Shown here piece after piece: positions 1-1,991 of a DNA stretch of 64,000 nucleotides (position 1 is the first letter of the stretch; each line of letters starts with the position of its first letter). The stretch lies in the NCBI RefSeq assembly GCF_054482525.1, contig NZ_CM137006.1. One strand, written 5' to 3'. The position numbers and the translations under genes are program-made. Under the pieces are notes generated by a model that saw only the letters and a program-made list of their open reading frames with translations, did no database searches and was not told where the DNA came from.

Positions 1-1294
1 ATGCGCGGGATTTAGCGTAAGCCGTTTGTGTCGTCTGGTCAGTTTGGAGAATGTTGCCATGCACCGTACGCCAGACAGTAAAGGTCTCTGCCTGACCATT
101 TTTCACCGTAATGGTTTCCTCACGGCTTAACATTTTCACCCACTTACCATTATGCAAGTAGTAGCCTGGTTTCTCTGCCGACAGCTGTTCAGCAAAAATA
201 TCGACATCATCGCCGAAACCTGCCGTTGATCCCCAGGAAATGACACCATTATGACCAAAAACCAGCCCCGGATAGGCAAATGGTGTATTGCCAGTGACGT
301 CATAACCAGCACCATGCAGACCAATACCATAAGTATACGCAGGCGCATACCAGCCAAACTGCGGACCATTTACCATGATTGCTTTCGCATCCTGGGCTTT
401 GCTTTTGCCGATCACCCACATATTGCTGGTCGTTGGATACCCCGCCAGACCATTGGCACCACTCTGTGCAAATTGTGCAGCAATAGTTTCTCGGTTCTTC
501 CCTGCTGTTAACGCCAGCAGTGCGCCATCCGCCCCTTTTGCTGGTCGGTCAAGCATTGGTGCAGGCAAATCGTAGCGTGGCAACAGAGCTGCTGTTTGCG
601 AGTTTTGCTGATTAAATTTAAGTGGGTAGCTACTCTCTTGTACGGCAATAGTGGTTGGCGCTGATGGGTTTACCAGCCATTTCAACTGATTAAATACCGC
701 CATGCCTTGTGATACACCATATTTATCTTTTAAAGCCGTTAGCAGTGCCAGATTATCAATTTCGCTAGTGCTATCAGAGAAGCGGTTTGCCATGGTGCCC
801 ACAAATATCATCGCGACATCAAACGGTTCCCAGCGCTTAGGAGTAAAGCCAAATGTATTAAACTGTTTTGGTAAGAGCGTCTCTGGATTGGTATTTACCT
901 TATCAATCCAGGCATTCATTCCATCAGCGTAGCCTTGCAGAATGGACATATCCTCTGGGGAAAGGGCAGCAATTTGTGCCCGGATAGCATCCGGCCAGTA
1001 GTTACGGCGGATATCTTTATCAAATTTCACAAAATCTTTGCCAAGCACTTCCGCGACAGTTCCTTGAGTACTGCGACGTGCCATTTCCATCTGAAAAAGG
1101 CGATCTTGTGCTACTGCATAGCCATAGCCATAAAATAGGTGCCATGTATCATTGGCATAAATATGCGGCATGCCGTATTCATCGCGAACAATCTTTATCT
1201 CACTTGACGACTGCTCAGCCAGTGCAGGCAAGCTCCAACAACACATCAGGTAAGCAGTAACACAGTTCACGATCATACGATTTCTATTTTTCAT
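1..1294 (-). CDS. pac: penicillin G acylase precursor (Ntn-hydrolase family), N-terminal ~431 codons; 3' portion lies beyond the window start
   Basis: Own translation of the minus strand from ATG at 1292-1294: [60 protein letters not shown]... stays open to position 1; matches recalled E. coli penicillin G acylase (signal peptide plus alpha subunit). Missing from the ORF track because no stop lies inside the window. Confidence 0.88.
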
Positions 1295-1650
1295 TGTATC
1301 CTCTGGCAGGTGTATAATTAGCGAATTGATACTAGCAACGAAGCTTCGGTTATCTATTTGCAGAGAATTGTTTCATTATGAACTGTGAGCGCGATAACTA
1401 ATTTTTGATACAAAAATTTCATTAATGTGATCTAAAACGAATCGCTTTATTCACCGCTGATGATTTTGTTCTTTTACTTTTCCATTCTGTGACAGCCCCC
1501 CGGACGCATAGATGATGACCCCCAGTGAGACAGCTCAGGTCACTATCTGTATGTAAATCAGAAAAATATGTTGTAAACGACTTTTATGGTTGGATTTTGT
1601 AGCAATTTTGAATGCAGACAGGCAGCATTTGCCAACACGCCGCCCATAGT

Positions 1651-1815
1651 TCACTCCACATCCTCCCTGCGTAACCCAATATCCCTCAACCGCTCATCAC
1701 TCATCTGCTGTAACACCCGCCGGGCCTGCATTTGCCGCCGCCAACGCCTCACTGCCTGCCAGAGTTGCACAAGTCCAATAAACGGTGCTTTAGCTTTGTT
1801 TTCGTGAAATTCCAT
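1651..1815 (-). CDS. yjiS: small DUF1127-family protein (54 aa)
   Basis: Own translation MEFHENKAKAPFIGLVQLWQAVRRWRRQMQARRVLQQMSDERLRDIGLRREDVE; DUF1127-like C-terminal motif (MSDERL.DIGL.R.D); divergent from yjiR as in K-12; below the 60-aa cutoff of the ORF track. Confidence 0.7.
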   Translation of the reverse strand: MEFHENKAKAPFIGLVQLWQAVRRWRRQMQARRVLQQMSDERLRDIGLRREDVE

Positions 1816-1991
1816 CTGCTGCCTCCTCATCTTTCAGAGGCTTCATCATCCGCCTTCTGGCAGTTCACAATACAGATGCAAATATTAGTTTTATTTAACA
1901 TACAGACAGGTTAAAACAGCATCTGCATCCGGTTTTTTAGCCTCATCTGTACCGGTTTTTCTCTCTGTATGGTCCACATAAGGAATACAGC

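What the first reader, a model, noticed from the sequence alone, without database searches (positions are those of the whole stretch)
1..1990. Penicillin G acylase gene (pac) sits next to yjiS-yjiR, where K-12 carries the mcrBC-hsd-mrr immigration control region
The minus strand from 1294 to the window start encodes the N-terminal 431 residues of penicillin G acylase, a strain-restricted accessory enzyme absent from K-12. It is followed by a 54-aa DUF1127 gene (yjiS, 1651-1815, missing from the ORF track) and yjiR. In the K-12 order I recall, the immigration control region lies beyond yjiS; here that position is occupied by pac, while a restriction island lies at the other end of the window beyond nanS.
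Basis: partly seen in the sequence, partly recalled or inferred. Interest (0 to 1): 0.45.

Follow-up and report, generated by a model that had tools for sequence, protein, structure and literature searches.

The report
Penicillin acylase gene replacing restriction cluster
The window starts inside an ordinary, intact penicillin G acylase gene that sits where E. coli K-12 keeps its restriction-enzyme cluster; the same arrangement was published for E. coli W in 2011 and occurs in about one fifth of complete E. coli genomes.

Summary
Window 1-1294 (minus strand) encodes the first 431 residues of penicillin G acylase (Pac). In the full gene taken from a 99.996%-identical genome, 835 of 846 residues match E. 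coli W Pac. yjiS lies at 1651-1815 (minus) and yjiR at 1992-3404 (plus).

Three near-identical complete genomes and E. coli W all show the order yjiA-pac-yjiS-yjiR. K-12 has yjiT, yjiV', mcrCB, symER, hsdSMR and mrr between yjiS and yjiA. Homology with K-12 stops exactly at the yjiS stop codon and about 10 nt before the yjiA stop codon. This makes pac a clean alternative cassette in the immigration control region (ICR) slot.

The arrangement is not rare. pac is in 1074 of 5426 complete E. coli genomes, at this site in essentially all of them. In 1071 of them it is contiguous with the neighbouring hpa (4-hydroxyphenylacetate) cluster. Its divergence from W (1.5% nt) resembles that of the flanking core genes. 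It has no integrase, IS element, tRNA or plasmid copies.

The far end of the window does carry a multi-system defence island: type I R-M, Mokosh type II and PDC-S02.

Archer et al. 2011 state explicitly that pac replaced the ICR in W, and a 2025 EcoSal review lists this kind of cargo. Verdict: real, correctly read, already known, low interest.

The parts
1..1294 (-). pac, 5' part: codons 1-431 of the 846-codon penicillin G acylase precursor. The gene runs off the window start.
   Evidence: Translation; PDB matches; PF01804; 835/846 identity to E. coli W Pac over the full gene in L001.
1217..1294 (-). Signal peptide, residues 1-26 ([26 protein letters not shown]). It differs from W at S15Y, Y18C and Y19C.
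   Evidence: The mature alpha chain 1ai4_A starts at query residue 27; alignment to W. Export by the Tat route is from the literature as I recall it and was not tested.
590..1216 (-). Alpha subunit, residues 27-235.
   Evidence: The 209-aa alpha chain 1ai4_A aligns to query residues 27-235.
428..589 (-). Spacer (linker) peptide, residues 236-289, removed by autoproteolysis.
   Evidence: The precursor chain 1e3a_A covers residues 27-286, and the beta chains start at residue 290. Processing itself is inferred from the known enzyme.
2..427 (-). First 142 residues of the beta subunit. The N-terminal nucleophile Ser beta-1 (residue 290) is the codon at 425-427.
   Evidence: TTS|NMWVIG; beta chains 1ai4_B and 1gk9_B align from their residue 1 to query residue 290.
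1295..1650 (-). Intergenic region between yjiS and pac, carrying the pac regulatory region. The proximal 200 bp (1295-1494) are 100% identical to E. coli W.
   Evidence: Alignment with W. No ORF of 40 aa or more lies wholly inside this region.
1406..1444 (-). Candidate PaaX operator, CGATTC-N27-GTATCA on the pac strand. It matches 10 of 12 positions of the published TGATTC(N27)GAATCA.
   Evidence: Pattern search; consensus quoted from PMC9493321. The match is not above chance window-wide (4 found, 3.7 expected). Its weight comes from its position and its identity to the W promoter.
1651..1815 (-). yjiS, a 54-aa DUF1127 protein. Its stop codon marks the edge of the variable slot.
   Evidence: RefSeq annotation of the near-identical genome; PF06568; homology with K-12 begins exactly at the stop codon.
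1992..3404 (+). yjiR, a MocR-type regulator (GntR HTH domain plus aminotransferase-like domain), divergent from yjiS.
3647..4603 (-). rpnD, an intact Rpn-family recombination-promoting nuclease of 318 aa. It is a context gene of the ICR framework.
   Evidence: PF04754; annotation; pseudogene in K-12.
46272..63816 (.). Defence island beyond nanS, the 'restriction island' mentioned in the finding. Contents: an AAA ATPase plus MTase-S fusion, type I R-M (hsdR, hsdS and two hsdM), a PDC-S02 nuclease, and MkoC (Mokosh type II).
   Evidence: PADLOC matches; annotation of PCN033.

Best explanation
The window begins inside the chromosomal pac gene of an E. coli lineage that carries the 'pac allele' of the immigration control region (ICR) slot.

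**The slot.** It is bounded by two framework genes, yjiA and yjiS, that are transcribed towards each other. In K-12 it holds about 16 kb of restriction genes (mcrBC, hsdRMS, mrr and others). Here it holds a single 2.9-kb cassette made of pac, its own promoter region, and a hairpin between pac and yjiA. The cassette edges lie at the 3' ends of yjiS and yjiA. The alleles are most likely exchanged by homologous recombination in the conserved flanks, not by a mobile element (inferred).

**The enzyme.** Pac is made as a precursor with a signal peptide, an alpha subunit, a 54-residue spacer and a beta subunit. It is exported to the periplasm and cuts itself, exposing Ser beta-1 (residue 290) as the nucleophile. 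The heterodimer hydrolyses phenylacetyl and hydroxyphenylacetyl amides and esters. It releases aromatic acids that feed the paa pathway and the adjacent hpa pathway. This mechanism is inferred from near-identity to the characterised W enzyme.

**Regulation.** Expression is expected to follow the W pattern, with repression by PaaX relieved by phenylacetyl-CoA and activation by cAMP-CRP. This is inferred from the identical promoter-proximal 200 bp.

**Restriction.** Lacking the ICR genes, this strain carries restriction functions elsewhere, in the defence island beyond nanS.
For: Shown here:
- Identity of the ORF.
- Gene order tsr-hpa-btsT-yjiX-yjiA-pac-yjiS-yjiR-rpnD-mdtM in SCU-102 and in E. 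coli W, against the K-12 order.
- Breakpoints at the yjiS stop codon and about 10 nt before the yjiA stop codon.
- pac is in 1074/5426 genomes. The whole yjiA-pac-yjiS stretch is in 1067. hpaBC-to-pac is contiguous in 1071. hpaB alone is in 2071.
- pac is 98.5% identical in nucleotides to W, against 97.0-99.0% for the flanking genes btsT, yjiX, yjiA and yjiR; yjiS is lower at 93.3%.
- No flanking repeat of note, integrase, IS element or tRNA. No true plasmid copies.
- The promoter-proximal 200 bp are identical to W, with a PaaX-like box at 1406-1444.
- An 11-bp-stem hairpin lies between the convergent yjiA and pac genes (z -4.4).
- Defence systems are present at the far end of the window.

From the literature:
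- W lacks hsdMRS, mcrBC and mrr, 'replaced by the pac gene' (PMC3032704).
- The ICR is a defence island with non-defence cargo such as 'penicillinase' (PMC12707154).
- PaaX binds the pga promoter (PMC9493321).
Against: - The window holds only the first half of pac and does not reach yjiA. The completeness of the gene and the left edge of the slot rest on three near-identical genomes, not on the window.
- No expression, processing or activity data exist for this allele. It has 11 substitutions relative to W, three of them in the signal peptide.
- The PaaX and CRP matches are no more frequent than chance window-wide.
- The presence of paaX and the paa cluster in this strain was not checked.
- The recombination mechanism is inferred from sharp boundaries only.
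- The direction of change (pac replacing R-M, or the reverse) was not resolved with outgroups.
Confidence: 0.93

Rival explanations
1. pac is a recently acquired mobile island that inserted into and deleted the ICR in this lineage.
For: pac and its upstream region have slightly lower G+C (0.40-0.50) than the flanking core genes (0.52-0.59). The slot is a known hot spot of gene turnover (PMC12707154).
Against: - No integrase, IS element, tRNA or meaningful terminal repeats.
- The site and structure are the same in about 1070 genomes from diverse serotypes and hosts.
- Divergence from W is 1.5%, like the neighbouring core genes.
- Only three other genomes carry this exact allele, which suggests long residence and lineage-specific drift.
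- No genuine plasmid copies.
Confidence: 0.05
2. The pac copy is a decayed remnant with no function, merely filling an emptied ICR site.
For: The window shows only 431 codons. This allele has 11 amino-acid changes relative to W, including three in the signal peptide. A few genomes carry an IS-disrupted or truncated pac (H138, H155).
Against: - The 846-codon ORF is intact in all three near-identical genomes.
- Ser beta-1 and, by inspection, the residues alpha-M142, R145, F146 and beta-F24, A69, N241, R263 are unchanged.
- The promoter region is identical to W.
- 1067 of 1074 carriers keep a full-length copy.
Confidence: 0.03
3. pac sits in the defence hot spot because it has a conflict-related role, such as destroying phenylacetylated antibiotics or acylated signals of competitors. 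On this view it is not simply a catabolic scavenger.
For: It lies in a defence island slot. Distant relatives in the PDB search are acyl-homoserine-lactone acylases such as PvdQ.
Against: - The literature read here states that PGA shows no function in antibiotic resistance and is thought to be a scavenger for phenylacetate esters and amides (PMC9493321).
- pac is nested almost perfectly within genomes that carry the adjacent hpa catabolic cluster: 1071 of 1074, against 410 expected if independent. This fits a catabolic role.
- The matches to PvdQ are remote (E 1e-5 to 1e-9).
Confidence: 0.05

Closest known systems
pac locus of E. coli W (ATCC 9637; its derivative ATCC 11105 is the industrial PGA strain), NC_017635.1 4834157-4838247
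   Same: - Same gene order: yjiR-yjiS-pac-yjiA-yjiX-btsT-hpa cluster-tsr.
- pac is 98.5% identical in nucleotides and 835/846 in amino acids.
- 200 bp upstream of the ATG are identical.
- The 77-bp yjiA-pac spacer is 98.7% identical.
- Archer et al. 2011 describe this as replacement of the ICR by pac.
   Different: - 11 amino-acid substitutions: S15Y, Y18C, Y19C, V60A, N222S, G278S and R370Q within the window; A651V, P707S, T759A and T780M beyond it.
- A 6-bp indel and a few SNPs in the distal intergenic region.
- W has a shorter yjiS-yjiR spacer, 131 bp against 176 bp.
- Between yjiL and kptA this lineage has a pentapeptide-repeat gene and iatD, which W lacks.
Immigration control region of E. 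coli K-12 (yjiT-yjiV'-mcrCB-symER-hsdSMR-mrr)
   Same: Same chromosomal slot and the same anchors, yjiA on one side and yjiS/yjiR/rpnD/mdtM/yjiN on the other. The boundaries of non-homology lie at the 3' ends of yjiS and yjiA.
   Different: The content is entirely different. K-12 has about 16 kb of restriction and toxin-antitoxin genes. Here there is a 2.9-kb single-gene catabolic cassette with no defence gene.
Solved E. coli penicillin G acylase structures (e.g. 1ai4, 1gk9, precursor 1e3a)
   Same: Alpha chain, spacer and beta chain align end to end with residues 27-235, 236-289 and 290 onward. The Ser beta-1 context SNMWVIG is conserved.
   Different: A few conservative substitutions. The window holds only 142 of the 557 beta-subunit residues.

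Membership tests
Penicillin G acylase (Ntn-hydrolase, Pfam PF01804, EC 3.5.1.11) | Penicil_amidase domain | tested here: met
   PF01804, E 1.9e-85, 288.8 bits against a cut-off of 21.3; residues 33-419 match profile positions 2-300 of 675.
Penicillin G acylase (Ntn-hydrolase, Pfam PF01804, EC 3.5.1.11) | Precursor layout: signal peptide, alpha subunit, spacer, beta subunit | tested here: met
   Solved alpha chains align to residues 27-235. The precursor chain aligns to 27-286. Beta chains start at residue 290.
Penicillin G acylase (Ntn-hydrolase, Pfam PF01804, EC 3.5.1.11) | N-terminal nucleophile Ser beta-1, plus the substrate and oxyanion residues (alpha-M142, R145, F146; beta-F24, A69, N241, R263; roles recalled from the literature) | tested here: met
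   S290 in TTS|NMWVIG. Residues 168 M, 171 R, 172 F, 313 F, 358 A, 530 N and 552 R are identical to W in the alignment. Residues 530 and 552 lie outside the window and were read from L001.
Penicillin G acylase (Ntn-hydrolase, Pfam PF01804, EC 3.5.1.11) | Close identity to the experimentally characterised enzyme | tested here: met
   835/846 identical to E. coli W Pac with no gaps.
Penicillin G acylase (Ntn-hydrolase, Pfam PF01804, EC 3.5.1.11) | Complete gene present | tested here: inconclusive
   The window ends at codon 431. The gene is complete (846 codons) in SCU-102, PCN033 and 19KM1776, which are at least 99.99% identical over the shared stretch.
Penicillin G acylase (Ntn-hydrolase, Pfam PF01804, EC 3.5.1.11) | Autoprocessing and hydrolysis of penicillin G or phenylacetyl amides | not testable with these tools
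   Needs an enzyme assay.
Immigration control region (ICR) locus of enterobacteria | Variable segment bounded by the conserved anchors yjiA and yjiS...yjiN | tested here: met
   yjiA-[pac]-yjiS-yjiR-rpnD-mdtM-yjiN in L001. K-12 has the same anchors. The anchor definition comes from PMC12707154. The yjiA side lies outside the window.
Immigration control region (ICR) locus of enterobacteria | Cargo consists of restriction or other defence genes | tested here: not met
   Only pac lies between yjiA and yjiS, with spacers of 77 and 356 bp and no further ORF. The locus is the ICR slot, but this allele is not a defence island.
PaaX/CRP-controlled pac promoter (as described for E. coli W) | Same promoter sequence as the characterised W promoter | tested here: met
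   Window 1295-1494 is 100% identical to W.
PaaX/CRP-controlled pac promoter (as described for E. coli W) | PaaX box TGATTC(N27)GAATCA and a CRP box | tested here: inconclusive
   A 10/12 match at 1406-1444 and a CRP-like TGTGAGCGCGATAACT at 1384-1399. Both kinds of match are as frequent as chance across the window.
PaaX/CRP-controlled pac promoter (as described for E. coli W) | paaX present in the same genome | not tested
   The paa cluster lies outside the window and was not looked up.
Mobile genomic island | Integrase or transposase, tRNA or IS borders, flanking direct repeats, copies on plasmids | tested here: not met
   No such genes between yjiA and yjiS. The only flanking repeat is an 18/23-nt imperfect match, consistent with chance. 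The three E. coli 'plasmid' hits are 0.4-4.8-Mb records, i.e. chromosomal DNA.

The most novel reading that the evidence does not exclude
pac and the hpa cluster occupy two separate slots 3.4 kb apart, on either side of the core genes btsT-yjiX-yjiA. They may behave as one linked 'aromatic-scavenging' haplotype that competes, as an alternative allele, with restriction-gene haplotypes of the ICR. On this reading the polymorphism would be maintained by selection, with a niche-specific trade-off between nutrient scavenging and defence, and not merely by clonal linkage. pac is in 1074 genomes and hpa in 2071, and 1071 of the pac carriers have both contiguous. Phylogeny was not corrected for, so this remains speculative.
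Probability: 0.1. Interest if true: 0.4.

Novelty: already known. Interest (0 to 1): 0.1.

Why it matters
It matters little beyond annotation.

- It confirms that this lineage (relatives of PCN033, SCU-102 and 19KM1776) has the E. coli W-type arrangement. It therefore lacks the K-12-type EcoKI, McrBC and Mrr restriction functions at the ICR, while carrying other defence systems near nanS.
- The population figures obtained here are a modest quantitative addition to a published observation. About 20% of complete genomes carry pac, always at this site, almost always with hpa, and never on plasmids.
- These figures correct the impression that pac is a rare strain-specific gene.

Tried and rejected
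- **Rfam scan of the whole window:** no family reached threshold, and ARAGORN found no tRNA. No RNA gene accounts for the pac-yjiS spacer.
- **Promoter and terminator scans of 1150-2100 and of the yjiA-pac spacer:** nothing above shuffled expectation. The hairpin after yjiS is not significant (z -1.26).
- **Repeat search around the cassette:** it gave only an 18/23-nt direct repeat at the pac 3' end and the yjiS 3' end. An 11-nt exact seed is expected about once or twice by chance in 3.8 kb, so I do not read it as an insertion scar.
- **PaaX and CRP consensus searches:** matches sit in the right place but are statistically no better than chance. I rely instead on identity to the W promoter.
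- **Primary papers:** I tried to read Galan 2004 (PMC374417), Diaz 2001 (PMC99040) and Prieto 1996 (PMC177627). None is held. What I say about Tat export, temperature dependence, and the early mapping of pac near hpa is from memory.
- **Plasmid search:** no real plasmid-borne E. coli-type pac.
- **Searches I chose not to run:** The answer would not change a verdict of 'already known'.

Full report
**1. The observation**

The minus strand from 1294 to the window start is an open frame of 431 codons beginning [48 protein letters not shown]....

- It matches Pfam Penicil_amidase (PF01804, E 1.9e-85).
- It matches the solved chains of E. coli penicillin G acylase in the pattern expected for the precursor. 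The 209-residue alpha chains align to residues 27-235. The precursor chain 1e3a_A aligns to 27-286. The 557-residue beta chains start at residue 290.
- The nucleophile context is TTS|NMWVIG.

The ORF listing output shows yjiS only as a 59-aa ORF running from an upstream ATG (1651-1830). The RefSeq start at 1815 gives the 54-aa product.

**2. What lies beyond the window edge**

A megablast of window 1-3500 against 5426 complete E. coli genomes found three essentially identical genomes: SCU-102, 19KM1776 and PCN033.

- SCU-102 differs from the window at one base in 23,500. That base lies inside a 9-nt tandem array.
- In SCU-102 pac is a complete 2541-nt gene. The order is lgoT, tsr, hpaR, hpaG-hpaC (the 4-hydroxyphenylacetate cluster), btsT, yjiX, yjiA, pac, yjiS, yjiR, rpnD, mdtM, yjiN.
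- PCN033 is 100% identical across yjiA-pac-yjiS.
- E. coli W (NC_017635.1) has exactly the same order.
- K-12 MG1655 has yjiT, yjiV', mcrC, mcrB, symE/symR, hsdS, hsdM, hsdR and mrr between yjiS and yjiA, about 16 kb, and has no hpa cluster between btsT and tsr.

**3. Edges of the cassette**

- Aligned with K-12, similarity starts exactly at the yjiS stop codon (TCACTCCACATCC... on the plus strand).
- On the other side it ends about 10 nt before the yjiA stop codon, so the last few YjiA residues differ.
- yjiA and yjiS both point into the slot.
- Between yjiA and pac there are 77 bp containing an 11-bp-stem hairpin (-23.1 kcal/mol, z -4.4). This is plausibly a shared terminator for the two convergent genes.
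- Between pac and yjiS there are 356 bp with no ORF lying wholly inside the spacer.
- No integrase, IS element, tRNA or convincing flanking repeat is present.
- The G+C of pac is 0.46-0.50, a little below the flanking genes (0.52-0.59) and close to what I recall as the species average.

**4. Population picture**

| Feature | Complete genomes (of 5426) |
|---|---|
| pac present | 1074 (19.8%), all chromosomal in effect |
| Whole yjiA-pac-yjiS stretch in one place | 1067 |
| pac 5' end-yjiS-yjiR | 1073 |
| hpaB present | 2071 (38.2%) |
| hpaBC-btsT-yjiX-yjiA-pac contiguous | 1071 |

- pac therefore has one chromosomal address and one structure.
- Virtually every pac carrier also carries hpa. About 410 would be expected if the two were independent.
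- Because the two slots are 3.4 kb apart and phylogeny was not corrected for, this may be simple linkage.
- It also fits the long-standing view that the acylase scavenges phenylacetyl and hydroxyphenylacetyl conjugates for the paa and hpa pathways (PMC9493321; the early mapping of pac near hpa is from my memory of Prieto et al. 1996).
- Against W, pac is 98.5% identical in nucleotides, within the range of the flanking core genes btsT, yjiX, yjiA and yjiR (97.0-99.0%; yjiS is lower at 93.3%).
- Only three genomes share this allele at 99% or more. All other carriers are 97.8-98.6% identical. That is the signature of a long-resident gene drifting with its lineage, not of a fresh import.
- A tblastn against 72,556 plasmid records found E. 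coli-type pac only in three records of 0.4-4.8 Mb, which are chromosomal DNA filed as plasmids.

**5. The protein and its control**

- The full protein is 835/846 identical to W Pac, with no gaps.
- Seven of the 11 differences fall in the window part: S15Y, Y18C and Y19C in the signal peptide; V60A and N222S in the alpha subunit; G278S in the spacer; R370Q in the beta subunit.
- The residues I recall as forming the active site are unchanged in that alignment: Ser beta-1, beta-A69, beta-N241, beta-R263, beta-F24, alpha-M142, alpha-R145 and alpha-F146.
- The 200 bp upstream of the ATG (window 1295-1494) are identical to W. Differences are confined to the distal part of the spacer.
- The region contains CGATTC-N27-GTATCA (1406-1444), a 10/12 match to the published PaaX site TGATTC(N27)GAATCA. 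It also contains a CRP-like half-conserved box at 1384-1399.
- Neither pattern is enriched over chance in the window. The inference that this allele is regulated like W (PaaX repression relieved by phenylacetyl-CoA, cAMP-CRP activation) therefore rests on sequence identity to the studied promoter.

**6. The other end of the window**

After nanS (ORF 44396-45409) the window carries:

- an AAA ATPase (AriA/PtuA-like) with an MTase-specificity fusion (46272-49909);
- a type I system with hsdR, hsdS and two hsdM genes (49990-57337);
- a PDC-S02 nuclease (58481-59644);
- a 1171-aa MkoC, i.e. Mokosh type II, at 1692 bits (59598-63113).

PCN033 annotation adds a degraded TIR gene and an HNH endonuclease. 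[quoted passage not shown] The strain is therefore ICR-less but not defenceless.

**7. Comparison with what is known**

- Archer et al. [quoted passage not shown]
- The 2025 EcoSal Plus review of restriction-modification describes the ICR as a defence island between conserved anchors. Its Fig. 10 legend lists hydrolytic enzymes ('penicillinase') among non-defence cargo (PMC12707154).
- The finding is thus a correct rediscovery in another lineage.
- As to membership, the ORF meets every testable criterion for penicillin G acylase. The locus is the ICR slot by its anchors, but it fails the 'defence cargo' criterion. It fails the criteria for a mobile island.

**8. Verdict**

- Observation confirmed and interpretation supported.
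- Novelty: already known.
- Interest: low (0.1).
- Additions made here are quantitative: frequency, fixed address, near-perfect nesting within hpa-positive genomes, cassette edges at the stop codons, and core-like divergence.
- The most novel reading not excluded is that pac plus hpa forms a selected haplotype alternative to restriction alleles. I give it about 0.1 probability.

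Noticed in passing
window 3647-4603 (-): rpnD (Rpn-family recombination-promoting nuclease, PF04754) is an intact 318-aa gene here, but is annotated as a pseudogene in K-12 MG1655. It sits two genes from the variable ICR slot.
   Followed up: partly
window 10192-12591 (+): A 799-aa pentapeptide-repeat protein gene lies between the ytiA-like DUF3343 gene and yjiK, and is absent from K-12 and W. It contains a 9-nt x 17 tandem array (11679-11830) and 24/72-nt arrays (12225-12492). 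The only mismatch between the window and SCU-102 in 23.5 kb (position 11708) lies in the 9-nt array. Offsets of 45 and 72 nt against 19KM1776 and PCN033 suggest the array length varies.
   Followed up: partly
window 15146-20386 (+): A 1746-aa inverse autotransporter (iatD; IAT_beta plus many Big_1/Invasin_D3 domains) lies between yjiJ and kptA. It is absent from K-12 and W at this position.
   Followed up: partly
window 12847-13689 (+): The yjiK homologue (SdiA-regulated domain) is only about 80% identical in nucleotides to the W allele, while the surrounding genes are 97-99% identical.
   Followed up: no
L001 8120-8500 (outside the window, hpa cluster): The 5-carboxymethyl-2-hydroxymuconate isomerase gene is 80.8% identical to W, while all other hpa genes are 97-99% identical. 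This is a sharply divergent allele inside an otherwise conserved operon.
   Followed up: no
window 46272-63816: A multi-system defence island lies beyond nanS. It holds an AAA ATPase plus MTase-S fusion, type I R-M with two hsdM genes, a PDC-S02 nuclease and MkoC (Mokosh type II, 1692 bits). PCN033 annotation also shows a frameshifted TIR gene and an HNH endonuclease. SCU-102 is otherwise identical to the window but has a shorter version ending in an integrase next to tRNA-Leu.
   Followed up: partly
L001 18796-18818 and 21654-21676 (the latter = window 1654-1676): An imperfect 23-nt direct repeat (18/23) lies at the 3' end of pac and the 3' end of yjiS, encoding ...KQDVE... and ...REDVE* respectively. 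It is probably chance, but it lies close to both cassette edges.
   Followed up: partly
window 1816-1991: The divergent yjiS-yjiR spacer is 176 bp here and in K-12, but 131 bp in E. coli W. yjiS itself is unusually polymorphic (93.3% identical to W, although both strains carry pac).
   Followed up: no
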